A stretch of 64,000 nt of DNA from Candidatus Woesearchaeota archaeon (GTDB lineage: Archaea > Nanobdellota > Nanobdellia > Woesearchaeales > JAHWIC01): positions 9,871 to 73,870 of the forward strand of contig JAHWIK010000027.1 of assembly GCA_019322485.1 (NCBI GenBank), read 5' to 3'. Every line of letters starts with the position of its first letter. The stretch's first letter is position 1. Position numbers and translations under genes: made by a program. Shown in pieces: positions 3,020 to 50,683 of the stretch. The notes beneath the pieces are model-generated. The model did no database searches. It was not told the origin of the DNA and worked only from the letters and a program-made list of their open reading frames with translations.

Positions 3020-3052
3020 GGGGTTATACAAGAGACTATTAAGAGGTTCGGA

Positions 3053-5656: not shown

Positions 5657-5657
5657 A

Positions 5658-6585: not shown

Positions 6586-6611
6586 GTAATTTGTATACTG
6601 ATGTACATATC

Positions 6612-34000: not shown

Positions 34001-34378
34001 ATCTGTTACAGAGACCTTGTTACACTTGGTCTGCCAAAAGATGAATGCGATAAACAGTATGAATACCATATGTGTGTTTATGTCCTAGGTGATGCTATTG
34101 GATGGCTGTTGTTTAATTTTATTGGAGCTGCGATACAGGCAATAGTACAAATGTTGATTAATCCTGTTGCAGCCCTGTGGGCATGGACTCGTACTGGGCT
34201 GCTTAGGAAGTGCCATACATCTCTTTCAAAAACAGTAAAATGGAGTACATGGTGCGCTGCGTATGCAGTCTGGCAATTGCTCACAAACATCGCAGAAATT
34301 GCAGAGCTTGAAGAGACCTATGAGAATATGAAGTGGGACCATGAAACAAACATGTGCGAAGAGCTTTTAGATGATTGA
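31058..34378 (+). CDS. Family A1: signal peptide + Ig-like array + Cys-rich polytopic C-terminal domain (1106 aa)
   Basis: Signal MIAIFLCTLIITIPFYTSSVYA. Units are delimited by DFKPPRI, DREGPGI, DETGPIV and DITPPLV. C-terminus: IYLIATTIALIGAIFANCC ... ICLCLPGIVYNVRKYRELVCWKAICY ... ECDKQYEYHMCVYVLGDAIGWLLFNFIGAAIQAIV. Paralogous to 43343 and 50680. Confidence 0.8.
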   Translation: MVILIKFKHLQMIAIFLCTLIITIPFYTSSVYAAVSGHIKRYPVAYGNSDGFPGAARQYDTITVEALARIDVDGESQPVSANQVKLYNEGMDFDYCDPDAGGYYLCSLENYPYPTGGFQGIKKFDIGLYHEGTRIAVGRASVVPDFKPPRIESLAITLPSEDAVKGISTTGTVSVDYIVKDYGYLNSWRDKECSGISKVEFYLNGFTGGPFKTENIDTGDCDYSDSFSFNVPSNIMVGTVKVCAKVYDRFNQASSEEEASPNCVSFGIDREGPGIQGGSFRVVDEDDRDVYFYHPRGKDVDVVFVIDAEDLNLGQGLGSIRIDLTTLDSSKLTSSNLNSGQCLRAPNSNLTNCVVSINLDSEGGLVTITSTDRYDNVDEEFLTAIFTLDETGPIVAQFVSDSIFMDGLYAKQYGNNFSALISDGGGIGVDSDDVKLVFYDGFSYDSSQDLNVVTNCTGTPGATACLWEGVDLSPGSDMAVKARIEGNDMLENAIAANEFNVTVDITPPLVTEADISIEALGSLTGDLTSGGGINITARIKDFTQIFAHADLSRFITGGERVPADSCIKVSDEWADETEWVCSWLRMIEAPGPDSGIDMDIEFEDVPGNIVTVTKTGLELYERVVEEVPDYYDLDIREDLLELIPIDMEVIESLTTQFYYQLVPFELLYNGRCSGDEIEITNIRLFGCEGYAYHAPRSDDPRSYTGFIQFALDTNEIINYDDYVEIGVDSTCQIEFNVKCHQKSYLQPEPEEIRLNIPIVVGDDVGDDLTDDIEDLKDWAETDFWAMWEFMDQVVTILKNICKIRQHIYLIATTIALIGAIFANCCEKGAAASAYCCPAEITSSGIHITFTEPQEAGAPGTTFEDKMKKLCAFVGCQKKDEPGLRAEDLPSDTAGAGDDAPDPTPRELLCNKLAKLGKNWITEYDFGSSGAAQGAETYVDAAWSTSVLQLSMKSLIFASICLCLPGIVYNVRKYRELVCWKAICYRDLVTLGLPKDECDKQYEYHMCVYVLGDAIGWLLFNFIGAAIQAIVQMLINPVAALWAWTRTGLLRKCHTSLSKTVKWSTWCAAYAVWQLLTNIAEIAELEETYENMKWDHETNMCEELLDD

Positions 34379-36242: not shown

Positions 36243-38609
36243 ATGAAAAAAAGAGGTGTAGCCTTTAAAAAAGGCCAGATAACTGTATTTATAATAATTG
36301 GGATTCTCTTATTAGTTTCTATTTCTACAGTGGTATATTTTAGAGGGAGGGCAGTCAAGGATATACCTATAGAAGAATTTGTTGAGGTGCCAGAGGTTGC
36401 AGCAGAGCTTGTGCCTATTGATTTGTTTGTGAAATCATGCATTAGAAGAAAGATTGAGGGGCCTGATGGTCCTCTTAAAGGCGCCCTTAGGATAGCTGAA
36501 GAGCATGGCGGCTATATCTACCAGGAAGAATTACAGCCCGATTATATGTCCCCAACAGAAGGCAATGCTATTGAGTATCTGCCTAACTCTGGTATACTAA
36601 TACCCTACTGGTATTATATGAAAAGCCCGAATTATTGCCAAAGTAACTGCAAATTTGACACAATGATGCCGCCATTATGCAAGCCTTCACCAAGAGAGTG
36701 TGTCAATGAAGGCCAGGGCTCAATTGAAGAGCAGCTGGAGCGGTATTTATTAGAAAATATTGATGAATGCTTGGCTGGTTTTGCGGAAACAGAGAAACAG
36801 GGCTTTGAGGTGACTGAGCTTGGTGAGCCCCAGGCTAATGTGATAATAAGGGACAGGGATGTGCTAGTCAGGCTTTACTATCCCTTAAGCATAGAAAAGG
36901 AAGGAGCTACTGGCGGGATAGATGATTTTGTAGTGACAATAAGAAGCGACATAAAAGAGCTGTATACAATGGCTTATGAGATGGCTAAATATGACATGAA
37001 TAACTGCTTTATTGGCAAACATATACAAAACCATATTTCATACTCTGCAGGGCTAGGGGCTGGTAAACTGCCTCCAATCTATGAGCTTACTATAGGAGAG
37101 CCTTCCATGCAAATATGGTCTTTAGAGAATGTCAAGCAGCTTTTGAAATATAGAATAGTTGGAGCTGTTCAGTTAATTGGCGTGTTTTACACAAAAGGGT
37201 TTACCTGGCCAACATACCATGACCCAAATGACCCATATTACTCAACAAGACAGGGAATCCTTGACAATCAGGTTTTCAGGCCATTTGATACCTTCCATGA
37301 TGCTACTGTGATTTTTAATTACCTTCCGTGGTGGGATATCTATCTTGACATAAAACCAAGCAGTGGCGGTGTACTAATGCCTTCTGACTTTGGCATGGAT
37401 GCAGGAAGTTTCGCTACATTAATAGGTACAATATCACAGACAAAGACCTACAAATTCTCTTATCAATACTCATTCCCTACAGTGGTTGATATAAGAAAAC
37501 TGGATTATAGGAATGATGAGCATGTTTTCAGGTTTGCGCTTGAGGCAAATGTCAGGGCTAACAGATGCTTCAGTCCAAACATTACCATGACTTACACCAG
37601 GGATGCCTTTGCCACAGGATTATGCGATTATGTACAGGCTAGAAGGAATGCCACTATTAATGTAAAGGAGATTACGCGCGAATTTGGAAATTATGTCCAA
37701 CATCCAGTGGATGAGGTTAAGGTTACTTTCTTTGCAGGCACTACCTGCTTGCTAGGATTCACTGATGAAAATGGTATTATTGAAGCCAAATATCCAGCTG
37801 CTTATGGCGCGCAAATGAAATTTGCTAAAAGAGGCTATGCTGAAAAGATTGTAGATGTCTCTGATATTAGTGATGGTGCAACAGTCATCATAAATAAACT
37901 AAGAACATACAATGCAACAGTAAAGCACTTTAAGATGAACCGCGACAGAAGCTTGCCTCAATCAGGGGTAGACCTTGAGCCAGGGGAAACTGTGGTAATC
38001 ATGCTAAAGAAAGCTGACTACCCAGAAATACCGAGCCAAGTAGTGTCATTTGATGGCAGCTCTGAAACAAATATGACCTTAGATCTGATTGAGGGTAATT
38101 ATGAGATTAGCGCGCAGTATTTTAAGCGCAGCCCCTTTAGTTTACCTCCAATGTGCATCCATATATGTAATCATGGAACATTTTCACAGCCAAGCACTGA
38201 TTCATGGGATGCTGTAAACAACGTGCCAACAAGCAAGTGCTTTGATGATGATTGTACTCCCGGAGGGGATTGTTATGGATATAGCACTGAACTTATTGAT
38301 TTAGGTGCTTATGTCGAATGTTGCAATCAGGCCAATGAATGGATTCCTGAAGATCCAGTTAATATTTCACTCATGGGCGGGGCTAAATTTGACCAAGATT
38401 TAGGTTACTGGACACTAACTGAAGGGCATTATTATGACCCAAGGGGCACAATAGAATTTAATGTGCTAAGCCAACCAGACCCTGACTGCGTTTCGGCTGA
38501 TGATTGTGTTGTACCTGACTGCATAGGCTATAGTGATGACCTTAGTGCTTTGGGTACCTATTATGAAACACACTGGAGTACACTTAGGCCAAGTTTAGTT
38601 TTTGGATAA
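36243..38609 (+). CDS. Family C1: 788-aa protein with class III (type IV pilin-like) signal-peptide-like N-terminus
   Basis: MKKRGVAFKKGQITVFIIIGILLLVSISTVVYF. The shared core FVKSCIRRKIEG...GGYIYQ...PTEGNAIEY...IPYWYYM... aligns with C2 and C3. Confidence 0.8.
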   Translation: MKKRGVAFKKGQITVFIIIGILLLVSISTVVYFRGRAVKDIPIEEFVEVPEVAAELVPIDLFVKSCIRRKIEGPDGPLKGALRIAEEHGGYIYQEELQPDYMSPTEGNAIEYLPNSGILIPYWYYMKSPNYCQSNCKFDTMMPPLCKPSPRECVNEGQGSIEEQLERYLLENIDECLAGFAETEKQGFEVTELGEPQANVIIRDRDVLVRLYYPLSIEKEGATGGIDDFVVTIRSDIKELYTMAYEMAKYDMNNCFIGKHIQNHISYSAGLGAGKLPPIYELTIGEPSMQIWSLENVKQLLKYRIVGAVQLIGVFYTKGFTWPTYHDPNDPYYSTRQGILDNQVFRPFDTFHDATVIFNYLPWWDIYLDIKPSSGGVLMPSDFGMDAGSFATLIGTISQTKTYKFSYQYSFPTVVDIRKLDYRNDEHVFRFALEANVRANRCFSPNITMTYTRDAFATGLCDYVQARRNATINVKEITREFGNYVQHPVDEVKVTFFAGTTCLLGFTDENGIIEAKYPAAYGAQMKFAKRGYAEKIVDVSDISDGATVIINKLRTYNATVKHFKMNRDRSLPQSGVDLEPGETVVIMLKKADYPEIPSQVVSFDGSSETNMTLDLIEGNYEISAQYFKRSPFSLPPMCIHICNHGTFSQPSTDSWDAVNNVPTSKCFDDDCTPGGDCYGYSTELIDLGAYVECCNQANEWIPEDPVNISLMGGAKFDQDLGYWTLTEGHYYDPRGTIEFNVLSQPDPDCVSADDCVVPDCIGYSDDLSALGTYYETHWSTLRPSLVFG

Positions 38610-38613
38610 AGAG

Positions 38614-39423
38614 ATGACATTGTTAAACAAAAAAAGGCTAATGGAAGTAAAGAAATCCTTGTTCTTTAAGAGCTTTAAAGATATTGACTTAAAGTTATTG
38701 TATGCAATTCTAATAGATGCAGGGTATTATCTCCTGGTATTTGGCATTATAATGTTAACCTATTCCATGCTGCAATACAACTTTACAGCATTAGATAATG
38801 TAATGCCTGTGTTAGAGAAGATTCAAACCCTTTCTATTGATGGCCCTGGCTTCAAGGCAGAGGCAGAAGAGGCTGTTGGGATGCTGCGCATGATGTTTAT
38901 GAAAGGGGTATTGATAGCAGTTGGAGCAGTTATTGTTTTGGTTCTTGTATCAGCGGTTTTAAGAAGCCTGGTTTGGAGCCAAATCCTGAGGATAAAGGTA
39001 GATAAACACTATCTAAAAAGGTTTTTCCTGCTCAAGGTTTTGTGGAGCCTTGCATGGCTGCTAGTAATTGCGCTGGGTTTTTTGTTGTTTAAGCCTAAAG
39101 TCAGTGTATGGATTTTGATAGTAACGTCTGTGATTTATGTTCATTTTACAGTAATCCTGCACTCCTTGTTTGATAAAAGAAAAGCAAATTTGGGGCTAAT
39201 AAAGAGCGCATTCTTAATAGGACTAAAAAAGATTTATTTGCTCATTGTGCCATATATCGTGGCTGGGGCTGTTTTTTATTTCCTTGGCTCATCCTGCTAT
39301 CTGGCATACCTGCTGAAAAAAAAGGTTGTTTTAATGAGCATTTATGCTATCTTGTTCATAGTATTTTCAGGATGGGTAAGGCTGTACATATCAATGATAC
39401 TTAAAAAGGCAGAAAAAGCTTAA
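38614..39423 (+). CDS. Family D1: polytopic membrane protein (~269 aa)
   Basis: The track start at 38602 is TTG, and the first ATG is 38614, 5 nt after the C1 stop. It has 5-6 hydrophobic helices. LIKSAFLIGLKKIYLLIVPYIV aligns with ILRKALMLGAKKAHIILLVYLI of D2. Confidence 0.7.
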   Translation: MTLLNKKRLMEVKKSLFFKSFKDIDLKLLYAILIDAGYYLLVFGIIMLTYSMLQYNFTALDNVMPVLEKIQTLSIDGPGFKAEAEEAVGMLRMMFMKGVLIAVGAVIVLVLVSAVLRSLVWSQILRIKVDKHYLKRFFLLKVLWSLAWLLVIALGFLLFKPKVSVWILIVTSVIYVHFTVILHSLFDKRKANLGLIKSAFLIGLKKIYLLIVPYIVAGAVFYFLGSSCYLAYLLKKKVVLMSIYAILFIVFSGWVRLYISMILKKAEKA

Positions 39424-40668
39424 TTATCCTCTAGGGCCAAGCTGCTGTAGTTCGTACAATTTTTCAAGCTGGTAGCAGTTCTGCTTAAGGAATGGCTGGG
39501 TTAGCTTATCACAAAGTTCGAATCTGCCAGCTGTTGCAAAGACCATATAACAATTATCGCGTATAGTGTCCTTTATAATCTTGGCGCACATGCCTGCGTC
39601 ATTAAGTTCCTTGGCAATACTCCTAATGCAGTTGTCTTCTGCTCGCTGATCCATAATGTCATCACAATATTGCTCATCAGTTGATGCCTGAGCAACCCTG
39701 CCATAACAGTCATCCCTGAATACCCTGTCTGTGATATCAGCGCATTGCTGGCCAGCTTTTGATGGGTTTGTGAATGCAGTTTGTTCTATATTGCTTAGCT
39801 TTTCCCATGTAGTCATAGTAGGGGTAATCGGTGCTGGTGGCGGCGGTGGAGGTGGTTTTGGGCAGTCATCTGAACATGTTGTATAAGTCTCTCCTGTCTC
39901 ACACTTCCCGTTACCGCAGCAGGGGATTATTGGCCTGGAAACACACTCATTTAACGCAAGAAAATCTGTAGTGCAAGGGTCGCCATCCTCACAAATAAGG
40001 TCTCCCTCCCTTTCTTCCTCTGTTGGAACCACAAATTCTTCCTCTCTAGGAATCTCTTCTTCCTCCTCAGGCAAGGTTGGCGGTGGGGTTGGTGCCTCAG
40101 CAACACTAAATGTTTCTACTGCAGTTGCAAGCTTTCCATTGTATCTTGCCAAAACCTTTAACTGGTAGTTTGCTGGCGCTAGGCTAGAAGGAATCCTTAT
40201 CTTGGCTTTTGTTGGAACCCCTGTTTCAATTGCTGCTGTTTCTTCCTTGTGTTGGACTACATTTTCATTTGCATCCATTATTAAATATCTCAGTGAAACA
40301 TCCTGCCTGCCAGCAGCTCCCAGGTCAAGCAGCTCTACATCAAATTCTAAATCATCACCCTGCATAGCTTCTGTTGTGGTTATGGTTGTCTCAAGGCCAA
40401 GAAGTTCTGCTGGTTCTCCTTTCATAAAGTTAAACGCCAGAATGCCTCCAAGGACAACAACAATAAAAACAGCAGTTAGCGCAATAATTGTTGTTGGAGA
40501 TATATGGACTGCAGGCTTGGCTGCCTGCGGCTGTGCATAAGCCTGCCTGATGGCTGCGTCAATTGCAGGCTGCTGATAGCCGTATTTAAGCAGCGCTGCT
40601 CGTATAGAATTGACATTATAGCCTGCTTTAAGCTGCTGCCTAATATAAGAAGCTAAATCCTGAGCCAT
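39424..40668 (-). CDS. Membrane-anchored Cys-repeat protein (414 aa)
   Basis: N-terminal LKAGYNVNSIRAALLKYGYQQPAIDAAI helix pair, TM TTIIALTAVFIVVVLGGILAF and a beta-sandwich-like region. Then a Glu/Pro linker, the CCGNGKCETGETYTTCSDDC motif, a poly-Pro run, and about 6 repeats of C-x(2)-I-x-D-x(3)-(R/E)D-x-CY-like units. Its stop codon abuts the D1 stop (TAATTA at 39421-39426). Confidence 0.75.
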   Translation of the reverse strand: MAQDLASYIRQQLKAGYNVNSIRAALLKYGYQQPAIDAAIRQAYAQPQAAKPAVHISPTTIIALTAVFIVVVLGGILAFNFMKGEPAELLGLETTITTTEAMQGDDLEFDVELLDLGAAGRQDVSLRYLIMDANENVVQHKEETAAIETGVPTKAKIRIPSSLAPANYQLKVLARYNGKLATAVETFSVAEAPTPPPTLPEEEEEIPREEEFVVPTEEEREGDLICEDGDPCTTDFLALNECVSRPIIPCCGNGKCETGETYTTCSDDCPKPPPPPPPAPITPTMTTWEKLSNIEQTAFTNPSKAGQQCADITDRVFRDDCYGRVAQASTDEQYCDDIMDQRAEDNCIRSIAKELNDAGMCAKIIKDTIRDNCYMVFATAGRFELCDKLTQPFLKQNCYQLEKLYELQQLGPRG

Positions 40669-41083: not shown

Positions 41084-41248
41084 ATGAGTGTACAGATACG
41101 AATTACAGTCTCTAAAGAGATAAACGAACTTCTCGAAAAGGTAGCTAAGAAACTCGGCAAAAAGAAGTCAATGCTAGCTAGAGAGCTGATGGAGCAGAAG
41201 CTATACGACTTAGAATTGATTCAAAAAAAATTTGGTGAGCTAAAATAA
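41084..41248 (+). CDS. Ribbon-helix-helix (CopG-like) protein, 54 aa (not in the ORF track)
   Basis: Hand translation: MSVQIRITVSKEINELLEKVAKKLGKKKSMLARELMEQKLYDLELIQKKFGELK*. It has a beta-strand (IRITVS) plus two helices. The stop TAA (41246-41248) overlaps the ATG (41248) of C2 as TAATG. Confidence 0.7.
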   Translation: MSVQIRITVSKEINELLEKVAKKLGKKKSMLARELMEQKLYDLELIQKKFGELK

Positions 41249-43341
41249 TGAATAAGAGAATGAACAAAAAATCCCAGATTACTTTGTTTATTATAATCGG
41301 AATAGTTATGCTAACCTCAGTTGGCACGTATATATACTTTAGAGCCTCTATCAGGAGGGCAGAGATAATGCCTGAACTTGTAGCTGCTGAGGAAGTGCCA
41401 AGGGCATTCAACCCAATACAGGTGTTCATAGAAAGCTGTGTGAGCAAGGTAGGTAAGGATGGGATGGAACTGCTTGGCAGCCAAGGGGGCTACATAAACA
41501 TTGAAAGAGCCGGTATTGGACCAGGCATAACACCTACTGAAGGAAATGCTGTAGCCTTTTCAAGAGGTTCTGGGTTAAATGTTCCCTACTGGTTCTATTT
41601 GGAGAGCGACAATAAATGCATTGGCAATTGTGTGTTTAGTACGCAAAAACCAGAACTGTACAAAGGCAGGCTGCTGTCAATCGAGGGGCAGCTTGAGGAG
41701 TATGTTAATGCCAATCTAAAGGAATGCTTTAATGAATTTAAGGTATTGAAAACAAGGGGCTACATAATTGAGGAGCTTGGAGATATTAATACAAAGGTTA
41801 GTGTAACAGAAGAAGAGGTTGTTGTTTTGGTAGAATACCCAATCAAGGCTAGGGCTCTTGATGCAGTGCTTGAGCTTGAAAGGTTTCCAGTGGTAATACA
41901 AGTTAATTTAAAGGACATTTATGAATTGGCTATGCTGATAACAAACCTCGAGGCTGAATACAGATATCTTGAAAAGGACGCGCTAAACCTCATAACCGGG
42001 TTTTCTGGCAAGGATATGGAAAAGCTGGCGCCAATGTCAGATGTTGGCCTGGAGTTTGGCAACAGACTTTACTGGAGAAGAGGCGCAATTATAGACAATC
42101 TAAAGGGCATGCTTTCAGCCTATATCCCTTTGCTGCAGGTAGAGGGTACGCGCAATTACAGGCCATTGAGCTTTCCTGGTGAAAGCCTGAAGGAATCATT
42201 ATACAATCAACAGATGCTGATTCCAAACAGTGAGCTGTATAACCTTGATGTTTACTTCACTTATCTTGGATGGGAGCCATGGTTTGACCTTAATTGCAGG
42301 GGGGAGATATGCCAGCCAGAATCTATTTCAAGCAGCATAATAACCCTGATGGGCTTGCAGCGATACAACTTTGTCTATGACCTTAGTTTCCCTGTGATGG
42401 TAGAGATACATGACCCAGACGCATTTAAGGGCCTAGGTTATGACTTTAGGTTTATGCTTGAGGCAAATATCCGAAATAACGAGCCTATGCCAGAGGTATT
42501 CAGCCCACTACAGGTTATTGAGCCACAGGTTTCTTTGCTGTGTGATTTAGAAAAGAGAAACAGCGGCTATATGGATATAGATATAACTGATATGATGACT
42601 GCTGAGCCAGTTGATGATGTGAGGGTTTCTTTCAGCTGCGCTGAGGAGAGCTGTTTTATGGGTATTGCGGAGGGAGGCAGCTTAGTAGAAAGATTCCCTG
42701 TTTGCCTTGGAGGGATTGTTTCCTTCCTTAAAGAAGGCTACCTGGGTTATTCTCAATTCCTGAACACAAAGCTTGACGAAAAAGCTGAGGTTAAGGTCAC
42801 CCTTAAACCATTGGTTGAGAAGCAGTTTATGATTAAGAAAAAGAGGGTTGTTAAAAATCCAGAAGGGTGGGTTTTCATTGATACTCCGTTTACACTTGGA
42901 AGAAAGGAAAGCGCATTCATAAGTCTTGTAAGAAAACCCGGCCCAGGCGAGGATGCATACCAGGCTGCTGCTGAATACAGCGGCGGTGTTGGAGAGATAA
43001 CCCTGGCGGATGGAGACTATGAGATTGATATACAGCTTTACACAAATGAAACAATTATTATTCCAGAAGAGGAGCGCTGCGAAGAGGTTGCGTTTATTGA
43101 GCAGTGCTATACAATTGAAGAGCTTAAGTTTAATGAAACCTTTCCAAATGGCGGCTTGAAGCTGAATCATACATTTACAGCTGATGACCTTAAGAGTGAT
43201 ATGATAACGTTTTATGTTGTAAATACCTACATAACAGGCATTCCTGAAGCTAACAGGGTTGTTGAAGACCTTGAGCAAATAGAAAAGGTAGAGGAATACT
43301 CTACAGCCCATGCTAATAGATTAAAACCAACAGTTGAATAA
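41248..43341 (+). CDS. Family C2: 697-aa protein with class III signal-peptide-like N-terminus
   Basis: MNKRMNKKSQITLFIIIGIVMLTSVGTYIYF. The core FIESCVSKVGKDGMELLGSQGGYINIE...PTEGNAVAF...VPYWFYL... is paralogous to C1 and C3. Confidence 0.8.
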   Translation: MNKRMNKKSQITLFIIIGIVMLTSVGTYIYFRASIRRAEIMPELVAAEEVPRAFNPIQVFIESCVSKVGKDGMELLGSQGGYINIERAGIGPGITPTEGNAVAFSRGSGLNVPYWFYLESDNKCIGNCVFSTQKPELYKGRLLSIEGQLEEYVNANLKECFNEFKVLKTRGYIIEELGDINTKVSVTEEEVVVLVEYPIKARALDAVLELERFPVVIQVNLKDIYELAMLITNLEAEYRYLEKDALNLITGFSGKDMEKLAPMSDVGLEFGNRLYWRRGAIIDNLKGMLSAYIPLLQVEGTRNYRPLSFPGESLKESLYNQQMLIPNSELYNLDVYFTYLGWEPWFDLNCRGEICQPESISSSIITLMGLQRYNFVYDLSFPVMVEIHDPDAFKGLGYDFRFMLEANIRNNEPMPEVFSPLQVIEPQVSLLCDLEKRNSGYMDIDITDMMTAEPVDDVRVSFSCAEESCFMGIAEGGSLVERFPVCLGGIVSFLKEGYLGYSQFLNTKLDEKAEVKVTLKPLVEKQFMIKKKRVVKNPEGWVFIDTPFTLGRKESAFISLVRKPGPGEDAYQAAAEYSGGVGEITLADGDYEIDIQLYTNETIIIPEEERCEEVAFIEQCYTIEELKFNETFPNGGLKLNHTFTADDLKSDMITFYVVNTYITGIPEANRVVEDLEQIEKVEEYSTAHANRLKPTVE

Positions 43342-43342
43342 G

Positions 43343-46300
43343 ATGTCAATCAAGCAATTAAAGTTAATCGCATTGTTCATGAGCAGCTTAATGATAATGA
43401 TACCTATGTATTCTGCTTCTATTCTTGCATATACCGGCATTAAGAGGATTGAGGCTAGCGGCCAGGATGGCATCGAGGGCTATATTAGAAATGAGGATGC
43501 TATTGACTTCAGGGTAATTGCTAATATTGATGATGATCTTGATGGGGTAACATCAGACCAGGTTAAGATTCCTGAGGCTGCTGTGGAGTTTAGCAGCTGC
43601 ATGCCTGGTTTGGAAGGCTATGAATGCGAACTCAGGCTTCCTGATACAGGAACCTGGACATACAGAGACCTAAACAGGATTCCAGTTCTATTATATGACG
43701 AAGGTGACAACCAGGTTGGCGGGCGCACTGCCACACTTGTTGTGGACAATAATGCCCCTGATGTCAGGTTTTTTAGTATCCTGCCTAAGCTGACTTCTTC
43801 GGGAGATATGACATTTACTTACTCTGTCGAGGATTATGCTTATAGAAAAGGTGATTCAAGCAGATGTGTCGGGCTTGACAGGATTGTATTTTATACCTTT
43901 GATTCATCCTTTGTCGAGCAGGTCAACATTGATACTGATGATTGCGATGTTTCAGGCAGTGTTTCAGTTGACAACAGTATCCTGCCTGAGGGAGGCAATG
44001 TGATTTATGTCAAGGCTGTTGACAAATTTGAGCAGGAATCAGAGCCTGAAGAGGATTCAATTGTTATTGACAGGACAGCGCCAGTAATAGGCAGCTTGAA
44101 GATTGTTGATACCAATGGAAACAGCATTGATTATATCGGCAGTGATACAATAAAAGGCGAGGTTATTGTTAACATAAGCGGGCCTGGCCTGGATACCAAC
44201 AGCGTGGCAGGTGATTTCTCTGAGCTGAACTATGAAAGGGGGAATTACAAAAACCTCAGAGCAGTTATATGCAATGTATTGCATGACACAGCCCTATGCA
44301 GCTGGTCTGTTGAGCTTAAGCTTGACAGCGGCGGTATGAAGTATATGACTATAAATGCATCTGATAATGTTGGGAATAAAGCAACAGTAAGCTTGTCCAA
44401 GGGATTTGTGTTTGATGATGCAGGGCCGGTTATAAACGGTATAACCACAGATAAAATACATGGCGGGATTAGCTATGCCTCTTCGCAGGACAATACATTT
44501 GTGGCTTCTATATCTGAGCCAGGTGTTGGAGTTGATGCAAGCAACGTATTCCTGCACATAGGATCTTTGTTCCTGCCAGCTGACAGCTGCGAGGCTGATG
44601 CCTGCTATTGGTATGAGGTTGGTATTGGCCAAGAGGGTAGTGTAAGAGTCTGGATTGGTGATGACACAACTGACAGGCTTGGAAATGCTGCAGAGGAATT
44701 TTCCACTGATATAATTGTTGATGCAACTAAGCCTGCATTAACTTCCCTGAATGTGAAAACAATCGGTGGTGTGCTGCCTGCTTACAGGTATGTAAAGACC
44801 TTTGACAGCCTGGAGATAACAGCTGAGATTGTTGAAGCAAATGTCATCACAGAAGCTTATGGTGATTTCTCATCAATAATTGACGGTGCTGATAAGGTTC
44901 TTGCTGATGAATGCACTAAAACAGACGGCACCTATACCTGCAAATGGACAACTGATCCAATAGATGTTGAGGGCTATATTGATAGTTCCATTGACTTTAG
45001 CTTTATTGATATATCAGGTAATGTCCTTACAGCAAGTGCTCCTGTTGAGGTTTACGAGCTAATCGATACTGAACTTGATTATTGGAAACATGATGTGAGT
45101 TGCTCGCCAGAGCTGATTGACAGGCAGACAACAGCACTTGTAAACCACAGGATTTACTGCCATATCGGCCTTTCAGGAAATGCTGAAACAATTGACATAA
45201 ATCTTGAGGGATGCGACGGACCTACTGAATATTTAGAAGAGGCGCCTGTGCTGTTTAATGATGAGATTGGCAGTACTGACCCTTACCTTAAGTTTACGCT
45301 CAGGGCTGAAGAGCTGACTATTAGTGAGCTGGAGTTTGACTGCAAGCTGAGGATTGTTTCAAAGATAAGTGAGCGCATAACAAGGTATCCAGAGGTGGAG
45401 AATGTTTCCATCCAAATCGGATTCTACAACCTGCCTCTTGGGGAGTATGGCGCTGGTGTTGACAAAAAGATCGAAGATGCCAAAGAGTTTGCGTGGTATA
45501 TTGGTGACTGGGTTGAGGATGTCAATGAGATACTGCACTATGGCCAGGCTATCTGCAATATGGCTAATTCGCTTATAAAGCTCTTTGGTGGTTTATCAGC
45601 AATTGGAAGTGCACTTTCCCTGCTTGGGACAACATCCAAAACAGCAGATGAGGTCAGGAAAGAGGTGCAGCGTGCACAACAAGGTGTGAGTGGACTGACT
45701 AAGGAGCAATGGGCTAAGAGCGAGGGTTTCAATAAATTCTGCAAATTCTTCTCATGCAGGCTTTACTATGATGATGCCTTCGAAGGTCCAACTGCCGAAG
45801 CAATAGGCAAGTGGCAGCGTACGGTTCTTGAGCGAGCTAACTGGGTATCTACTGGCGGCGGAAAGATTCGTGCAATAGAGGCATGGTCCAATAAAGAGAA
45901 CCGCAACAAGATGAACATCTACACTGGCAAGCTTAACCCCAAGGAAAGCATTGTGATTAGCACCCTGACATTATGCCTGCCTGGAATTGTTTACAATCTC
46001 AATAAGCTAAGGCAGATTCAATGCATGTATGTTGACTGCATGCAGACTTATGCTACACAAGGGCTTCCTTTGAAAGCCTGCGAAGACCAGAAGGAATACG
46101 CAACCTGCAAGTATTGGTGGGGGGAGATATTCCAGTTACTTCCATTTACTGGCTTGTGGAATGAGATGATTGGTATGGTTAAAAAAGCATTGTCAAGTCC
46201 ATTTGGTTTCATTGACATAGTTTTAGGCTATGTGTGCAGACCTCTGTATGAAAAAGACAAAATGGGAGGGCCAGCTGCTATATGCCTGATAAATGATATC

Positions 46301-46387
46301 GCTGGTCTGATTGCAGATGTTGCATCAGACCTTGAAGGTATTGGTGACCAGTGGGAAATAAAGGACGATTATTGTGATAATATTTGA
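43343..46387 (+). CDS. Family A2 (about 1014 aa)
   Basis: The track start at 43334 is TTG, and the first ATG is 43343, 1 nt after the C2 stop. Signal LIALFMSSLMIMIPMYSASILA. Units are delimited by DNNAPDV, DRTAPVI, DDAGPVI and DATKPAL. C-terminus: TLTLCLPGIVYNLNKLRQIQCMYVDC...ACEDQKEYATCKYWWGEIF. Confidence 0.8.
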   Translation: MSIKQLKLIALFMSSLMIMIPMYSASILAYTGIKRIEASGQDGIEGYIRNEDAIDFRVIANIDDDLDGVTSDQVKIPEAAVEFSSCMPGLEGYECELRLPDTGTWTYRDLNRIPVLLYDEGDNQVGGRTATLVVDNNAPDVRFFSILPKLTSSGDMTFTYSVEDYAYRKGDSSRCVGLDRIVFYTFDSSFVEQVNIDTDDCDVSGSVSVDNSILPEGGNVIYVKAVDKFEQESEPEEDSIVIDRTAPVIGSLKIVDTNGNSIDYIGSDTIKGEVIVNISGPGLDTNSVAGDFSELNYERGNYKNLRAVICNVLHDTALCSWSVELKLDSGGMKYMTINASDNVGNKATVSLSKGFVFDDAGPVINGITTDKIHGGISYASSQDNTFVASISEPGVGVDASNVFLHIGSLFLPADSCEADACYWYEVGIGQEGSVRVWIGDDTTDRLGNAAEEFSTDIIVDATKPALTSLNVKTIGGVLPAYRYVKTFDSLEITAEIVEANVITEAYGDFSSIIDGADKVLADECTKTDGTYTCKWTTDPIDVEGYIDSSIDFSFIDISGNVLTASAPVEVYELIDTELDYWKHDVSCSPELIDRQTTALVNHRIYCHIGLSGNAETIDINLEGCDGPTEYLEEAPVLFNDEIGSTDPYLKFTLRAEELTISELEFDCKLRIVSKISERITRYPEVENVSIQIGFYNLPLGEYGAGVDKKIEDAKEFAWYIGDWVEDVNEILHYGQAICNMANSLIKLFGGLSAIGSALSLLGTTSKTADEVRKEVQRAQQGVSGLTKEQWAKSEGFNKFCKFFSCRLYYDDAFEGPTAEAIGKWQRTVLERANWVSTGGGKIRAIEAWSNKENRNKMNIYTGKLNPKESIVISTLTLCLPGIVYNLNKLRQIQCMYVDCMQTYATQGLPLKACEDQKEYATCKYWWGEIFQLLPFTGLWNEMIGMVKKALSSPFGFIDIVLGYVCRPLYEKDKMGGPAAICLINDIAGLIADVASDLEGIGDQWEIKDDYCDNI

Positions 46388-46389
46388 AA

Positions 46390-48786
46390 ATGGATAAAGC
46401 AAGACTATTGAAGATTGGAATTTTGTTCGTGATAATTTTGGTAATCTGCAGTGGGATTGTTTATGCTGCTGATTCTACCACAAAGAAGGTCACTATAAAA
46501 GGTGTAGATTATTACTATTCTGAAGAAGACCGTGCGGCAAATAAGGGAACGAAATCAACTAGTGTATACCTTGACCCTAAGTTAGAGAATAAAGCAAAAA
46601 GCTGGATAAAAACAGATGGGTCATTTGAAAGGCAACCTGAAACTCCTGAAGAAAGTGCAGAGTGGGCCCAAGGCCAATATTATGTTAATCAATTCGGTAA
46701 AGCTGCAGAAAGCTTTGACCCGACCAAAGCAGAAACAGTTGTGACAGCAGCGCCTGCTGCGCCAGCAGCAGCTGAGCCGGCGGCGGCAGAACCTGCTGAA
46801 GAAGGTTTCAAGCGTGAGGGGCAGGTTGGTACAGGCAAGCCCAGCGGTACAGGAGCCACACCTTCTGGAAAGAAATATTATTTTGACACGAGTGGTGATG
46901 GCAGTGCATTCTATCTCTCAAAAGAAGCAGACCAAAACAAGGCTGATGGATTAGACCATTTAGAATCAGTCACGAAAGAACAATACGATGCAATCAGAGG
47001 AGCGCCCAAAGGCTCAACCTTTACTTATGATGACAGTAAACCAGATGATAAGATAGTTTCTATAACGCATGAATCAAAAGGTACTACAACAACAACCAGA
47101 GTAAGTGGAAGCGGAAGCAAAACCAAAGAGACCAAAATAACAAGAGAAGGGAAGTCTTTCACAACTACTACAGATGTAAAAGGAAAGACTGTAGCAGTAA
47201 AATATGAAGGGATGGAACTAAGCCCATCAACAGAATGGAAAGTAAACAAAGATGGCCAACTAACCTATGATGGCCAGGTTGCAGAAAGCAAGGGTGGCAC
47301 CCTAGGAGAAACATTTGTGCTTAAGGATGGAAGGATGATTATAGCTTACTCAGCAGACCCTGGAAAGGACGAGCCAGGTGCAACAGTCGAGATATCTGCT
47401 GATAAATCGAGTATAAATGTTGCAGTCCCAGGAAGGAAGGACCAGCCGATAACCACAGCGGACTGCAAAAGGGTATTAGGATTTAGCATGGAAACAATTC
47501 TCAAGATGGCAGATGCTGAACTGATTGCTGATGAACTCCATAGGGCAGGTATACTTACCAACATAGGCTCTGTTTTCGAAATCCTTGAAAATGAAGGAAT
47601 AGGCTTAAGTGATATCATCAGTGGAAACGTGAAAGATGGAGTTTATACTTCGGGGAATGTAAAGATTGAATTTAAACCAGACGGCACAGTAGAAATCCAA
47701 AGAGTAACCAGCCCTGGAGCAAGATTTGATGAGAAAGGAAAACTGCCAGAAGGAACCGAATATGAAAGGGTTATAAAAAATGATGATAAGAGGGTAACTG
47801 AGATAGTCACTGTAACTGCAGGCAAAGAAGGAGCAACTGAAGAAGATGAAGAAACAAGGGCTAAATGGAATTATGTAGAGGGAAAGACTACTGGAACTGC
47901 CACGATTCCTGGTGTGGGGGAGGATGTTGAATTTGAATATAATGAAAATACTGGAAACATCATCTGGTACAAAGTCGATGATAAATATTACAGAGTAGAA
48001 GATGGAAGATGGTTTGAGGATGACAAGTTCACAAAACCGTGCACAGAGGGCTGCCCAAGTGCAGAGGCAACAGGCGCTCTAAGAACTACAGATGATAAAA
48101 AAGCATCTGCAGAGAACAGGATTACATCAACTGGGAGGTACATCCAAAGGTTCTGGGGTGCCTTAGAAACAGCTGCCAGGGGCGGTATTGGGAGGTTCTT
48201 AAGCCTTTTCATGGACGATGAAGATCTTAGAGAATGGAGAGAGGGAGTTGACGATTTCCTCTGCTCAACAGTTATTGCTGGCGGCACTGAATGCTGGACT
48301 TCTGGGATATGCGGCAAATGGATTGATGACAGGTTTGGCGGCGGGATAGCATATGTGGAAATACCGGGTGGAATGCTCAATATTGCAGCTCATATTGAAG
48401 GAGAACGAACAGTGGTAGAGTCCCCAGAAAAAACACAATACCTGTATAAATTCACTTATGTTATAAACAACCCTCTCAAGGAAGGGCTTGGCTTTAATGT
48501 CTATTTTTATGGTGATAGAACAACTAGTTTATACAGCGAAGATATGAAATTAGAAAAAGGAGCATCTACCTCAAGGATAGGAAACTCTGCTGTTGTCCAA
48601 TATTCTGATTATTATTACACCAGGGCATGCATTGTATTTAACAGACCAATAAAGGTTGCTGGCGACACAATAACACAGTTATGCAACAAGATAACAGAGT
48701 ACCACGGCCCAGCACTTAGTATCAAATCAATTGGGGAGCGACAAGATAAACTGGAAGAGGAAGGAATAGTAGAAAACCAGATATAA
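46390..48786 (+). CDS. Family B2 (about 798 aa)
   Basis: The track start at 46384 is TTG, and the first ATG is 46390, 2 nt after the A2 stop. N-terminal anchor LLKIGILFVIILVICSGIVYA, an Ala/Pro linker, a Thr/Lys-rich region, and a C-terminal domain with QYLYKFTYVI and YYTRACIVFNRP. Confidence 0.75.
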   Translation: MDKARLLKIGILFVIILVICSGIVYAADSTTKKVTIKGVDYYYSEEDRAANKGTKSTSVYLDPKLENKAKSWIKTDGSFERQPETPEESAEWAQGQYYVNQFGKAAESFDPTKAETVVTAAPAAPAAAEPAAAEPAEEGFKREGQVGTGKPSGTGATPSGKKYYFDTSGDGSAFYLSKEADQNKADGLDHLESVTKEQYDAIRGAPKGSTFTYDDSKPDDKIVSITHESKGTTTTTRVSGSGSKTKETKITREGKSFTTTTDVKGKTVAVKYEGMELSPSTEWKVNKDGQLTYDGQVAESKGGTLGETFVLKDGRMIIAYSADPGKDEPGATVEISADKSSINVAVPGRKDQPITTADCKRVLGFSMETILKMADAELIADELHRAGILTNIGSVFEILENEGIGLSDIISGNVKDGVYTSGNVKIEFKPDGTVEIQRVTSPGARFDEKGKLPEGTEYERVIKNDDKRVTEIVTVTAGKEGATEEDEETRAKWNYVEGKTTGTATIPGVGEDVEFEYNENTGNIIWYKVDDKYYRVEDGRWFEDDKFTKPCTEGCPSAEATGALRTTDDKKASAENRITSTGRYIQRFWGALETAARGGIGRFLSLFMDDEDLREWREGVDDFLCSTVIAGGTECWTSGICGKWIDDRFGGGIAYVEIPGGMLNIAAHIEGERTVVESPEKTQYLYKFTYVINNPLKEGLGFNVYFYGDRTTSLYSEDMKLEKGASTSRIGNSAVVQYSDYYYTRACIVFNRPIKVAGDTITQLCNKITEYHGPALSIKSIGERQDKLEEEGIVENQI

Positions 48787-48787: not shown

Positions 48788-50683
48788 ATGTTAATAAAAA
48801 AAGGGGTGAAAGTTAGAAAGAGAGGGCAGGTTACCTTATTTATAATACTGGGAATAGTTCTGCTCTCAGCCCTTGGGATGTATGTTTATTTTACGGTTGC
48901 TGCTCAAGAAGAAGCAGAGGTGATATCTGCAGAAGCTTCACCAGTTATAGTATTTGTAGAAAGCTGTATGATGGATATTGCAAGAGAGGGTATAACAACC
49001 TTGGGCTTTAATGGAGGGTATATAACCTTTCCTGCAAAGATAGAAAGGAATCCTATGACCTATCTAGCTGGTTCGCCGATAAAAGACCTAATGAATCCAT
49101 ACTGGTGGTATGACGGCATAGAAGCTATACCAACAGAGGGGTTCATAAAAATCCAGCTAGGAGACTATGTGTCAAGAGAGCTAAGAACATGCCTGAACAA
49201 TTTTGAGGATTTAAAGGATTATGAGATAAGAGAGCTTGGTCCTGTAAGCACTGTTGTCGAGCTTACTGTAGAGGATGTTGTGGTCAAGGTGGACTATCCA
49301 TTGGTTATCAAGAAGGGCGAGGATTTGATGAGGAAGGAGGACTTTAGGGTTGAGGTCCCAGTAAGACTGAAAAAAACCTATGAGCTTGCCAAAAGAATAA
49401 TGGAGCGCGAGAATAGAGATACATTCCTGGAAAAGAAAACAATTGACCTTATCTCAATGGACCCTGAAATACCAATCTCTGACATTGCATTTACATGCGA
49501 GCCAAGGAAATGGCTGCTAGAAGATGTCAAAGCCAAGATTCAGAGGCTGCTTAGGGTAAATCTTCCGTACATAAGGATTGAAGGGACAAGGTACGGCAAC
49601 ACATATGTCCCGAACCCGTATGGTGACAGATACAACACCTCCTACTATAACTACCATTATATCTGGGATGTTGAGGTTGAAGAGCTTGAAGACTTCAGGG
49701 TAAGCTTTACCTATGATGATAAATGGCCTATGGCTGTTTTTGCAAGACCAAGCAGAAATGGCATATTATCCAGCAATGCTGAGAAAGGCCAGGAGATGCT
49801 AGCATTTTTCTGCATGCATATCTGGCATTTTACTTATGATATTATCTACCCAGTTATGGTGGATATTGTTGATGAAAGAACAAGGGAGCATGACAGATTC
49901 AGGTTTAGGTTTCCTTTCAAGGTTTCTGTAAACCACAACCAGCCTTACAGGAAAAGATTCGGGCATATGCTTCTTGAAGGCAGTGAAAAGGCAGAGTCAG
50001 AGGAATACTGCACAGAAGCGCGCAATGAGGTAACGATTTACACCTCTGATAAAGCCACACAAGAGCCGGTTGCTGATGTGGACATAACATTGGTTTGCGG
50101 CAGGTTTAGATGTGACATTGGCAAAAGTGAATGGGTTGGTTATGGTGCAGGGGCTGGCCTTACAAAAAGGATGCCTTACTGCACACAAGCTCTTTTGATT
50201 GGAAGCAAGGAAGGTTATGCTGAAAGCAAGACATTCATACAGACTGACCTGCAGGGTAAAACCTATAATCTTGATATGGTTCCTATAAAAGAGATTGATG
50301 AGTATTATATAGAAAAACATCCATCATCGGTTCCTGCATTAGGAGATATTTTCAGAGAAGGTGAGAAAGCAGTGATTACAATAAGCGTGCCTGAGAAAAA
50401 TTTTGAAAGCTATGGTGTTTATCCAATAACAGGAAATGTTCCATTGAAATTCCTATCAAAGGAAGACAATACCTATAAGGTCTCTATCTATGTCACAAAA
50501 GGGGAGGACCTCCTTGGCGGTTATATAGGTGATTGGACTGTAACCAAAGAGCAGCTAGCTGGTGCTGAAAGGGCAGTATTCCATACAATTATAAGTGATG
50601 CAAAAACAGAGGATGAGAGATTCCTCTTCCTTAGCGGCTTAGAATCATATTCAGAACAAGTTCCAGGGCCTGAGTTAAGATGA
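48788..50683 (+). CDS. Family C3: 631-aa protein with class III signal-peptide-like N-terminus
   Basis: MLIKKGVKVRKRGQVTLFIILGIVLLSALGMYVYF; FVESCMMDIAREGITTLGFNGGYITF...NPYWWYD. ATG lies 1 nt after the B2 stop. Confidence 0.8.
   Translation: MLIKKGVKVRKRGQVTLFIILGIVLLSALGMYVYFTVAAQEEAEVISAEASPVIVFVESCMMDIAREGITTLGFNGGYITFPAKIERNPMTYLAGSPIKDLMNPYWWYDGIEAIPTEGFIKIQLGDYVSRELRTCLNNFEDLKDYEIRELGPVSTVVELTVEDVVVKVDYPLVIKKGEDLMRKEDFRVEVPVRLKKTYELAKRIMERENRDTFLEKKTIDLISMDPEIPISDIAFTCEPRKWLLEDVKAKIQRLLRVNLPYIRIEGTRYGNTYVPNPYGDRYNTSYYNYHYIWDVEVEELEDFRVSFTYDDKWPMAVFARPSRNGILSSNAEKGQEMLAFFCMHIWHFTYDIIYPVMVDIVDERTREHDRFRFRFPFKVSVNHNQPYRKRFGHMLLEGSEKAESEEYCTEARNEVTIYTSDKATQEPVADVDITLVCGRFRCDIGKSEWVGYGAGAGLTKRMPYCTQALLIGSKEGYAESKTFIQTDLQGKTYNLDMVPIKEIDEYYIEKHPSSVPALGDIFREGEKAVITISVPEKNFESYGVYPITGNVPLKFLSKEDNTYKVSIYVTKGEDLLGGYIGDWTVTKEQLAGAERAVFHTIISDAKTEDERFLFLSGLESYSEQVPGPELR

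What the first reader, a model, noticed from the sequence alone, without database searches (positions are those of the whole stretch)
41248..43341. Family C proteins carry class III (type IV pilin-like) signal-peptide-like N-termini but are 631-788 aa long
The N-termini are: C1 MKKRGVAFKK-G-QITVFIIIGILLLVSISTVVYF; C2 MNKRMNKK-S-QITLFIIIGIVMLTSVGTYIYF; C3 MLIKKGVKVRKR-G-QVTLFIILGIVLLSALGMYVYF. Each has a basic n-region, a small residue (G/S), then Q at +1 and a ~22-residue hydrophobic stretch. This matches archaeal prepilin-type signals, and Gln at +1 is characteristic of the EppA-processed Methanococcus pilins (DUF361 type). Structural pilins are usually under 200 aa, so proteins this large would be tip adhesins or minor pilins, or the N-terminus is merely a signal anchor. 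Three diverged copies per locus would fit a heteromeric fibre or cap.
Basis: partly seen in the sequence, partly recalled or inferred. Interest (0 to 1): 0.65.

Follow-up and report, generated by a model that had tools for sequence, protein, structure and literature searches.

The report
Pilin-type signals on large surface proteins
Three related 631-788-residue surface proteins of a tiny uncultured (Woesearchaeota-type, DPANN) archaeon start with the same cleavage-site motif as this lineage's own pilus subunits. They are therefore most likely pilin-style anchored carriers for the giant secreted proteins encoded right behind them: a very large unnamed family carrying a known kind of signal.

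Summary
C1 (36243-38609), C2 (41248-43341) and C3 (48788-50683) start exactly as quoted. The motif is conserved across the family: -2 K/R, -1 G/S/A, invariant Gln +1, Thr/Ser +3, Phe +5, Gly +9, then about 22 hydrophobic residues. The leader before it varies from 3 to 39 residues. Positions -3 to +9 are the most conserved stretch of the N-terminal module.

In five related genomes a type IV filament operon lies 6-10 kb from the family C gene. It holds a T2SSE ATPase, two T2SSF platform genes and small pilins. Those pilins carry [KR]-A|Q with Glu at +5, so the lineage's true pilins share the -2..+1 signature, as does RGQI of the EppA substrate EpdA.

Family C is not a recognisable pilin. The first 240 residues give a confident model with no PDB match, followed by CnaB/transthyretin-like beta-sandwiches. 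PF04021 is not met and +5 is Phe, not Glu. Nearly every C-like gene directly precedes, often with overlap, a gene for a large Sec-signal protein.

Best reading (0.6): a class III signal, with a pilin-like N-terminal helix tethering a carrier for the downstream giant.

The parts
41248..43341 (+). C2, 697 aa: the family C protein of the finding
   Evidence: ORF and translation. More than 200 full-length homologues at 38-63% identity, all unnamed and carrying Woesearchaeota/Nanoarchaeota labels. AF2 pLDDT 90.6.
41248..41274 (+). C2 predicted leader MNKRMNKKS, ending in K-K-S before Gln +1
   Evidence: Across the family, -2 is K/R and -1 is G/S/A.
41275..41340 (+). C2 predicted mature N-terminus QITLFIIIGIVMLTSVGTYIYF: a 22-residue hydrophobic helix with Q+1, T+3, F+5 and G+9
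   Evidence: It is part of AF2 helix 7-39.
41248..41967 (+). C2 N-terminal module (residues 1-240): leader, helix, variable linker, then an alpha/beta domain with invariant C64, G81 and C160
   Evidence: Alignment A3 of 100 modules. AF2 pLDDT 91.5, pTM 0.82. No PDB fold match: best E 0.036. 9348 clusters at 50% identity in the public protein library.
41968..42552 (+). C2 central conserved alpha/beta region (residues about 241-435), including LPPMSD and F-x-LE-x-N-I-R-N-N
   Evidence: Alignments A1 and A2. Secondary structure. This motif was the pattern used.
42553..43227 (+). C2 beta-sandwich region (residues about 436-660), CnaB/transthyretin/CarboxypepD_reg-like
   Evidence: All-beta in the model. 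Foldseek hits to CnaB-type pilins, SlaB, transthyretin-like domains and viral beta-sandwich arrays.
36243..38609 (+). C1, 788 aa paralogue. Leader MKKRGVAFKKG (36243-36275), hydrophobic helix 36276-36341
   Evidence: 26% identical to C2.
48788..50683 (+). C3, 631 aa paralogue. Leader MLIKKGVKVRKRG (48788-48826), hydrophobic helix 48827-48892
   Evidence: 30% identical to C2. The C3-type orthologue is kept in relatives.
43334..46387 (+). A2, about 1017 aa, Sec-type signal peptide. Starts within a few bases of the C2 stop
   Evidence: An A2 orthologue directly follows C2 in nearly all of about 80 loci.
50680..56475 (+). A3, 1931 aa, Sec-type signal peptide. Its ATG overlaps the C3 stop (ATGA)
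   Evidence: The C3-A3 order is conserved.
31058..34378 (+). A1, 1106 aa, of the extra A1-B1-C1-D1 module
   Evidence: Relatives lack this extra module or hold only a short C-like gene at that place.
46384..48786 (+). B2, 800 aa, N-terminally anchored or secreted protein between A2 and C3
34545..36224 (+). B1, 559 aa, with a TSP3 repeat
38602..39423 (+). D1, 273 aa polytopic membrane protein
   Evidence: The family has one conserved Asp and no GxGD, so it is not an A24-type peptidase by motif.
56495..57319 (+). D2, 274 aa polytopic membrane protein
41084..41248 (+). 54-aa ORF whose stop overlaps the C2 start (TAATG). It is conserved upstream of C2 in relatives
   Evidence: Homologues appear in L002 and L004. 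Its RHH nature was not tested here.
39424..40668 (-). 414-aa divergent membrane protein, a conserved upstream neighbour of the operon

Best explanation
Family C proteins are class III (type IV prepilin-like) signal-peptide proteins of a Woesearchaeota-type DPANN archaeon.

Inferred steps:
1. The short basic leader stays in the cytoplasm.
2. A class III signal peptidase cuts between the small residue (G/S/A) and the invariant Gln.
3. The 22-residue hydrophobic helix that begins with Gln stays in the membrane, or enters the base of an Epd-like (system 1) type IV filament assembly.
4. A flexible linker of about 15-25 residues holds an acidic, disulfide-bonded ectodomain of about 600-750 residues outside the cell. 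The ectodomain is a new alpha/beta module followed by CnaB/transthyretin-like beta-sandwiches.
5. Each C protein works with the giant Sec-exported protein (family A) made from the next, translationally coupled gene. It tethers or presents that protein at the surface, much as minor pilins carry the non-pilin adhesin PilY1.

Shown here: the motif and its conservation, its sharing with true pilins of the lineage, the domain layout, and the C-A gene pairing.

Inferred only: cleavage, the peptidase, any polymerisation, and the C-A contact.
For: 1. Motif. -2 K/R in 95/105, -1 G/S/A in 96/105, +1 Q in 105/105, then an uncharged 22-residue stretch. Leader length runs from 3 to 39 residues, so the motif is placed relative to the helix and not to the start codon. 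The same holds in 142 of 143 further representatives.

2. Conservation. Positions -3..+9 have 1.3 bits of entropy. The folded ectodomain has 2.2, the leader 2.7 and the linker 2.95. Q10 is one of only four invariant columns among 100 modules at 21-56% identity. This is the pattern of prepilin cleavage sites, not of generic signal anchors.

3. True pilins of the lineage share the site. In five relatives (L039, L048, L050, L051, L055) the family C gene lies 6-10 kb from an operon. The operon holds a T2SSE ATPase (PF00437, E 1.4e-39), two T2SSF genes (PF00482) and small proteins starting MVTKRKA|QAAMEF, MARA|QASMEY and MRKA|QSSIEV.

4. Literature. EppA needs Gln +1, with RGQI in EpdA (PMC4187195). 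System 1 has two platform genes and occurs in DPANN. Most DPANN genomes with T4F parts also have a signal peptidase. [quoted passage not shown]

5. Extracellular location. Invariant cysteines C64, C160, C432 and C469 and beta-sandwich domains point to an ectodomain outside the cell.

6. Gene pairing. All but about 5 of 89 C-like genes with a readable neighbour are followed at once by a large protein (median at least 1016 aa) with a Sec-type signal, by my reading of the listed N-termini; the strict test passed 75. 53 of the 89 overlap. The order RHH-C2-A2-B2-D-C3-A3 is kept in about 80 species.
Against: No class III signal peptidase was found. The window has none, nor do 1.26 Mb of related loci. 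The window's own genome could not be searched.

No T4F ATPase lies in the window. In most relatives none lies within 10 kb.

PF04021 and NCBIfam pilin models do not match.

+5 is Phe, whereas EppA substrates and the lineage's operon pilins have Glu.

The N-module is not a recognisable pilin fold: Foldseek best E is 0.036 and no pilin is in the top 50.

The helix is separated from the globular part by a variable, low-confidence linker and does not run into it as pilin alpha-1 does.

Every protein with the Q-x-T-x-F form proved homologous to family C beyond the helix. That exact form is therefore a family trait, not an independently recurring signal.

One preprint states that T4P parts are missing in DPANN.
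Confidence: 0.6

Rival explanations
1. Uncleaved signal anchor. The N-terminus is a type II membrane anchor (N-in, C-out) that is never processed. The conserved Q, T/S, F and G would serve helix-helix packing in the membrane with a partner such as the polytopic D protein or other subunits of the A-B-C-D envelope complex.
For: No peptidase was found. A variable linker follows the helix. The operon includes a conserved polytopic membrane protein D. The Q-x-T-x-F form is confined to one superfamily. PF04021 is not met.
Against: A plain anchor does not need a small residue at -1 (96/105) next to an invariant Gln, nor basic residues fixed at -2/-3 while the leader varies from 3 to 39 residues. The same -2..+1 site is used by unrelated small pilins in T4F operons of the lineage. 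The -3..+9 stretch is more conserved than the folded domain.
Confidence: 0.28
2. True filament subunits or cap. Family C proteins are built into an Epd-like pilus as tip or minor pilins. The lack of Glu +5 would mark them as the first (tip) subunit, as with GspK-type minor pseudopilins (the GspK parallel is from my own knowledge).
For: They share a class III site with operon pilins. The T4F operon lies close to the C gene in five relatives. Beta-sandwich adhesin-like domains are present. Large pilin-like adhesins are proposed in archaeal T4P loci (PMC4858521).
Against: The C genes sit in their own conserved operon, not in the T4F operon. There is no recognisable pilin head. A linker replaces a continuous alpha-1 helix. 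Two to four paralogues occur per genome, each paired with a different giant. No structural or genetic evidence for polymerisation exists.
Confidence: 0.2
3. Ordinary Sec signal peptide removed by signal peptidase I, releasing a soluble secreted protein.
For: The N-terminus has a basic n-region followed by a hydrophobic stretch.
Against: The conserved small residue lies before the hydrophobic stretch, not after it. No A-x-A-like site follows. The hydrophobic stretch is 22 residues and is followed by charged residues. The neighbouring A proteins show what Sec signals look like in these genomes (...IPFYTxSVYA), and family C differs.
Confidence: 0.03

Closest known systems
EppA-processed Epd pilins of Methanococcus maripaludis (archaeal type IV filament system 1; Pfam PF04021 Class_IIIsignal / DUF361)
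   Same: Short basic leader, K/R at -2, small residue at -1, Gln at +1 (EpdA RGQI versus KGQI, KSQI and RGQV here), Ser/Thr at +3, then a hydrophobic helix. The lineage has the matching machinery type: one ATPase plus two platform genes.
   Different: +5 is Phe, not Glu/Asp. PF04021 is not reached (7.1 bits against 23.7). The proteins are 631-788 aa instead of under 200. The globular part is a different, unmatched fold. The genes lie outside the pilus operon.
[quoted passage not shown]
   Same: Large non-pilin ectodomains carried on a class III signal and hydrophobic N-terminal helix. The genes are encoded away from the filament machinery, next to their functional partners (PMC13705601).
   Different: No substrate-binding-protein domain and no ABC transporter in the operon. 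The partner is a giant Sec-secreted protein. The Gln +1 site is of the EppA type, not the PibD type.
Minor pilin / PilY1 tip complexes of bacterial type IV pili, and GspK of type II secretion pseudopili
   Same: A pilin-like protein paired with a large non-pilin, Sec-exported adhesin. The lack of Glu +5 resembles GspK-type tip subunits (my own knowledge, not tested). PilY-like adhesins are proposed for archaeal loci (PMC4858521).
   Different: No sequence or fold relation was shown. No evidence that C is in a filament. C is itself far larger than minor pilins.
Modular type IV pilins (Streptococcus sanguinis PilB and PilC)
   Same: A conserved N-terminal module with variable C-terminal modules grafted on. 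Members range from 253 aa (module only) to 877 aa.
   Different: In modular pilins the N-module is a canonical pilin fold. Here it is not recognisable as one.
SlaB, the membrane stalk of the Sulfolobales S-layer
   Same: A membrane-anchored protein with tandem beta-sandwich domains that holds a large partner (SlaA). Foldseek hit 8qox_B, E 2e-5.
   Different: Low TM-score (0.12-0.18). SlaB is anchored by a C-terminal helix and has a Sec signal. The match covers only generic beta-sandwiches.

Membership tests
Archaeal class III (prepilin-type) signal-peptide proteins | Basic residue (K/R) at -2 | tested here: met
   95/105 homologues, 140/142 further representatives. C1 K, C2 K, C3 R.
Archaeal class III (prepilin-type) signal-peptide proteins | Small residue (G/A, sometimes S) at -1, directly before the hydrophobic stretch | tested here: met
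   G 39, S 32, A 25 of 105. 141/142. The strict FlaFind-type pattern (G/A only) fits 69/110. With S allowed it fits 102/110. C2 itself has S.
Archaeal class III (prepilin-type) signal-peptide proteins | Short leader followed by about 20 uncharged hydrophobic residues that stay on the mature protein | tested here: met
   Leaders of 3-39 residues, hydrophobic from +1 to +22. Predicted helix 7-39.
Archaeal class III (prepilin-type) signal-peptide proteins | Cleavage by a class III signal peptidase (PibD / FlaK / EppA) | not testable with these tools
   Needs N-terminal mass spectrometry or a co-expression assay.
Archaeal class III (prepilin-type) signal-peptide proteins | A24-type peptidase gene in the same genome | not tested
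None is in the window or in 1.26 Mb of related loci. PMC13705601 reports a signal peptidase in most DPANN genomes that have T4F parts.
Archaeal class III (prepilin-type) signal-peptide proteins | Assembly ATPase and platform protein in the genome | tested here: inconclusive
   Not in the window. Present on the same contig as the family C gene in five relatives: PF00437 and two PF00482 genes.
EppA-type / DUF361 pilins (Pfam PF04021) | Gln at +1 | tested here: met
   105/105 and 142/142. The requirement is described in PMC4187195.
EppA-type / DUF361 pilins (Pfam PF04021) | Acidic residue at +5 (Q-x-S-x-E) | tested here: not met
   +5 is F in 90/105 and F/Y in 138/142. The small pilins of the lineage's T4F operon do have E.
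EppA-type / DUF361 pilins (Pfam PF04021) | Score above the Pfam gathering threshold | tested here: not met
   C1 scores 7.1 bits against 23.7. C2 and C3 give no hit.
Type IV pilin fold | Long N-terminal helix whose C-terminal half packs on an antiparallel beta-sheet head | tested here: not met
   N-module model pLDDT 91.5. Helix 7-40 is followed by a low-confidence linker. Foldseek against PDB gives best E 0.036 and no pilin or pseudopilin in the top 50. Coordinates could not be inspected.
Bindosome-type substrate-binding proteins | Substrate-binding-protein domain and a neighbouring ABC transporter | tested here: not met
   No Pfam family in any of 36 members. The operon neighbours are the A, B and D families.

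The most novel reading that the evidence does not exclude
The Q-x-T-x-F N-module is a new pilin-like building block. On this reading it defines a separate surface organelle found across Woesearchaeota. The C proteins would be processed at K-G|Q and would then assemble through their conserved +1/+5/+9 helix face into a short stalk or raft. They might use the operon's own polytopic D protein as a platform instead of the Epd-type motor. Each C type would display a different giant A protein for contact with host cells.
Probability: 0.12. Interest if true: 0.8.

Novelty: new variant of a known kind. Interest (0 to 1): 0.5.

Why it matters
Woesearchaeota are among the most widespread uncultured DPANN archaea, and how they attach to partner cells is unknown.

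This family has about 9,300 clusters at 50% identity and no Pfam or NCBIfam model. It sits in an operon kept in the same order in about 80 species.

If its N-terminus is a real class III signal, pilin-type processing in these archaea would serve mainly to mount giant surface proteins. That would extend the bindosome idea (a type IV filament base used as a display platform) to adhesin-like giants in symbiotic archaea. It would also give a concrete peptide motif (K/R-G/S/A|Q-x-T-x-F) to look for in metaproteomes.

Tried and rejected

2. The look-up of encoding contigs on P0001: not on record, so the window could not be extended.

3. D family as a hidden class III peptidase: rejected. It has one conserved Asp and no GxGD. 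There are no Pfam or NCBIfam hits.

4. A regex search for A24-like polytopic proteins in 1.26 Mb of loci gave two hits, neither plausible.

5. Sequence profiles against PDB, full length and N-module: nothing meaningful.

6. Foldseek of the full model against PDB and BFVD gave only generic beta-sandwich arrays. The N-module alone gave nothing.

7. PF04021 and NCBIfam pilin models on the N-termini: below threshold or absent.

8. Testing whether the Q-x-T-x-F signal recurs on unrelated families: rejected. All such proteins (253-877 aa) are homologous to family C beyond the helix.

9. Family B as a second class III family: only 11 of 37 homologues carry K-G|hVSh, and the window's B1 and B2 do not.

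10. Supplementary tables of PMC13705601 are not held. Szabo et al. 2007 is not held.
Full report
**Observation.** C1 is 36243-38609 (788 aa), C2 is 41248-43341 (697 aa) and C3 is 48788-50683 (631 aa). The leaders are MKKRGVAFKKG, MNKRMNKKS and MLIKKGVKVRKRG. Each is followed by Gln and a 22-residue uncharged stretch: QITVFIIIGILLLVSISTVVYF, QITLFIIIGIVMLTSVGTYIYF and QVTLFIILGIVLLSALGMYVYF. A six-frame scan of the window finds this motif at these three N-termini; the only other match lies 61 residues inside a minus-strand frame that ends 10 residues later. None of the three proteins matches Pfam or NCBIfam. None of 36 family members matches any Pfam family.

**Organism and family.** C2 has more than 200 full-length homologues of about 700 aa at 38-63% identity. 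All are unnamed. The labelled ones are Candidatus Woesearchaeota, Nanoarchaeota or Nanoarchaeia. A scan of one genome per species found 191 relatives, with the same labels plus some records titled 'uncultured Methanosarcinales'. The window is therefore from a Woesearchaeota-type DPANN archaeon.

**The motif across the family.** In 110 homologues:
- -3 is K/R in 83/105 and -2 is K/R in 95/105.
- -1 is G 39, S 32, A 25.
- +1 is Q in 105/105.
- +3 is T/S in 92, +5 is F in 90, +9 is G in 92.
- Hydrophobic residues run to +22.

The leader before the motif varies from 3 to 39 residues. A strict FlaFind-type pattern fits 69/110, and 102/110 if Ser is allowed at -1.

In an alignment of 100 N-terminal modules at 21-56% identity, only Q10, C64, G81 and C160 are invariant. 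Positions -3..+9 are the most conserved segment, at 1.3 bits of entropy. The folded domain has 2.2, the leader 2.7 and the linker 2.95.

A profile of this module finds 9,348 clusters at 50% identity in 1.84 billion proteins. The module is always at the N-terminus of the protein. Of 143 new representatives, 142 carry K/R, G/A/S, Q and F/Y at +5; the remaining one has a truncated start.

A conserved cleavage-site-like core behind a free-running leader is what class III signals look like. A generic membrane anchor does not require it.

**Comparison with true pilins of the lineage.** In five related loci (L039, L048, L050, L051, L055) an operon lies on the other strand, 6-10 kb from the family C gene. 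Methionyl-tRNA synthetase, which is also the upstream neighbour in the window (28903-30972), separates them. The operon encodes:
- a 485-aa T2SSE ATPase (PF00437, E 1.4e-39);
- two T2SSF platform proteins (PF00482);
- small proteins that begin MVTKRKA|QAAMEFLMTYGW (175 aa), MARA|QASMEYLMVAG (147 aa), MRKA|QSSIEVTLLVG (142 aa) and ...MRKA|QTWSLDIMIA (151 aa);
- two with KG|YFFTLD- or KG|VFFTL-type starts.

One ATPase with two platform genes is the layout of archaeal type IV filament 'system 1' (the Epd type). Sivabalasarma and Albers report that type for DPANN. They find T4F parts in 2,942 DPANN genomes, 'most' of which encode the core components, a signal peptidase among them, and system-1 pilins in 1,990 (PMC13705601).

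The review PMC4187195 states that EppA substrates need Gln at +1 (RGQI in EpdA) and carry an acidic residue at +5.

Family C thus shares the -2..+2 site with both EpdA and the lineage's own operon pilins. It differs at +5, which is Phe. PF04021 is not reached: 7.1 bits against 23.7 for C1, and nothing for C2 or C3.

**Structure.** With 110 sequences AlphaFold2 gives pLDDT 90.6 for C2. The model has:
- helix 7-39;
- a low-confidence segment at about 31-50;
- helix 52-78 and a mixed alpha/beta region to about 435;
- an all-beta region from about 440 to 660;
- a C-terminal helix.

Foldseek against PDB and BFVD finds only CnaB-, transthyretin- and CarboxypepD_reg-like beta-sandwich arrays. These include Gram-positive pilins, SlaB and phage fibre proteins, all with low TM-scores.

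The first 240 residues modelled alone give pLDDT 91.5 and pTM 0.82. They have no PDB match: best E is 0.036 and no pilin is in the top 50.

The invariant cysteines and the acidic composition fit an extracellular domain. The protein therefore has a pilin-like signal and helix but no recognisable pilin head. A variable linker separates the helix from the globular part.

**One superfamily.** Other proteins in the loci carry the Q-x-T/S-x-F start and are 253, 299, at least 518, 685, 756 and 877 aa long. All are homologous to family C over residues about 55-230, even with the first 60 residues removed (E 1e-9 to 1e-42). The conserved unit is the 240-residue N-module. The shortest members are that module alone, and longer ones add variable C-terminal domains. 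This also means the exact Q-x-T-x-F form is a family trait and not an independently recurring signal, which weakens one line of argument.

**Genomic context.** About 80 species keep the order MetRS, (optional extra C-like gene), a 400-aa divergent membrane protein, a 54-aa ORF, C2, A2, B2, D, C3, A3. The window has an additional A1-B1-C1-D1 module, and its D2 follows A3.

All but about 5 of 89 C-like genes with a readable downstream neighbour are followed at once by a gene for a large protein with a Sec-type signal (median at least 1016 aa, many cut by contig ends), by my reading of the listed N-termini. The script's strict hydrophobicity test passed 75 of the 89. 53 overlap the C stop. In the window C2/A2 and C3/A3 are coupled in this way. 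In L002 a module-only C-like protein precedes a secreted SLT-domain protein.

This points to cognate C-A pairs, not to a fibre made of C1, C2 and C3.

**Mechanism.** The best-supported reading is a class III signal. The leader would be cut at [KR][GSA]|Q by a class III signal peptidase. The Gln-first hydrophobic helix would remain as anchor in the membrane or at the base of a system-1 type IV filament assembly. The ectodomain would tether or present the co-translated giant A protein.

This works like the Sulfolobus bindosome proteins, which are large non-pilin proteins on class III signals encoded beside their partners. It also works like minor pilin/PilY1 pairs. I give it 0.6.

Cleavage, the peptidase and the C-A contact are inferences. 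The chief rival (0.28) is an uncleaved signal anchor whose conserved residues serve packing with a membrane partner such as D. D itself is not an A24-type peptidase by motif. A true tip or minor-pilin role (0.2, overlapping with the main reading) has no direct support.

**Limits.** No A24-like gene lies in the window or in 1.26 Mb of related loci, and no T4F ATPase is in the window. A 2020 preprint says T4P parts are missing in DPANN. The five loci above and PMC13705601 contradict that for this lineage.

**Earlier notes of this scan.** Four notes on orthologous loci in other genomes reach similar readings. I treat them as agreement, not as evidence.

**Novelty.** The kind is known: a class III signal on a large non-pilin surface protein. 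New here are the family, its N-module fold, the Gln+1/Phe+5 form of the signal, and the fixed pairing with Sec-secreted giants. I found none of these described in the papers searched. I rate it a new variant of a known kind, with interest 0.5.

Noticed in passing
L086 4803-15319 (GCA_018399355.1, JAGYOA010000001.1); also L039, L048, L050, L055 at about 1-6600: A complete-looking system-1 type IV filament operon in Woesearchaeota. It holds an HTH-containing 595-655 aa protein, a T2SSE ATPase, two T2SSF genes, four small Q+1 pilins (three with E at +5), a 441-aa VWA plus CarboxypepD_reg protein, and two KG|(Y/V)FFTL-type pilin-like proteins. No peptidase gene is in the operon. This contradicts the preprint statement that T4P parts are missing in DPANN.
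   Followed up: partly
L002 6281-8396: A 253-aa protein consisting of the C-type N-module alone is followed directly by a secreted 450-aa protein with a lytic transglycosylase (SLT, PF01464) domain. This is a bacterial-wall-cutting enzyme in an archaeon, placed where the giant A protein usually sits.
   Followed up: no
Relatives, e.g. L002 15750-18884, L016 7865-11080, L030 15591-22022: In 11 of 37 family B homologues the N-terminus reads ...NKTAKG|LVSLITIIILLSSILA, a non-Gln class III-like site. The window's B1 and B2 lack it.
   Followed up: partly
window 43334-43440, 50680-50780; A-family genes in the loci: Family A signal peptides share a conserved ...(L/I)PFYxx(S/A)VYA ending in 26 of 79 homologues by a strict pattern. 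This is more conserved than Sec signals usually are.
   Followed up: no
window 28903-30972 and loci L013, L015, L019, L039 and others: Methionyl-tRNA synthetase is a conserved upstream neighbour of the C-A-B-D operon across many species. In one clade it separates that operon from the type IV filament operon.
   Followed up: partly
L006, L008, L014 and about 30 other loci: Many TPA assemblies that carry this Woesearchaeota-specific family are titled 'uncultured Methanosarcinales archaeon'. This looks like a labelling error in the records.
   Followed up: no
L002 20398-22154: The C3-type gene is split into a 73-aa piece (leader, helix and start of the module) and a 508+ aa piece, so it may be a frameshifted or broken copy in that MAG. 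Similar splits occur in L040, L062, L075 and L077.
   Followed up: no
window 145-1236: An ORF with a CarboxypepD_reg domain and a MopE-type metal-binding motif sits at the window's start. It belongs to a run of large surface-protein genes filling most of the first 27 kb.
   Followed up: no
window 39424-40668 (-); L050 5322-6902, L051 6212-6931, L055 5766-6917: Membrane proteins sharing an N-terminal cytoplasmic motif of about 45 aa (..Y(I/V)..(Q/N)L..G(Y/F)....I...L...G(Y/W)) lie divergently upstream of the C-A operon. In other genomes they lie upstream of the type IV filament operon.
   Followed up: no
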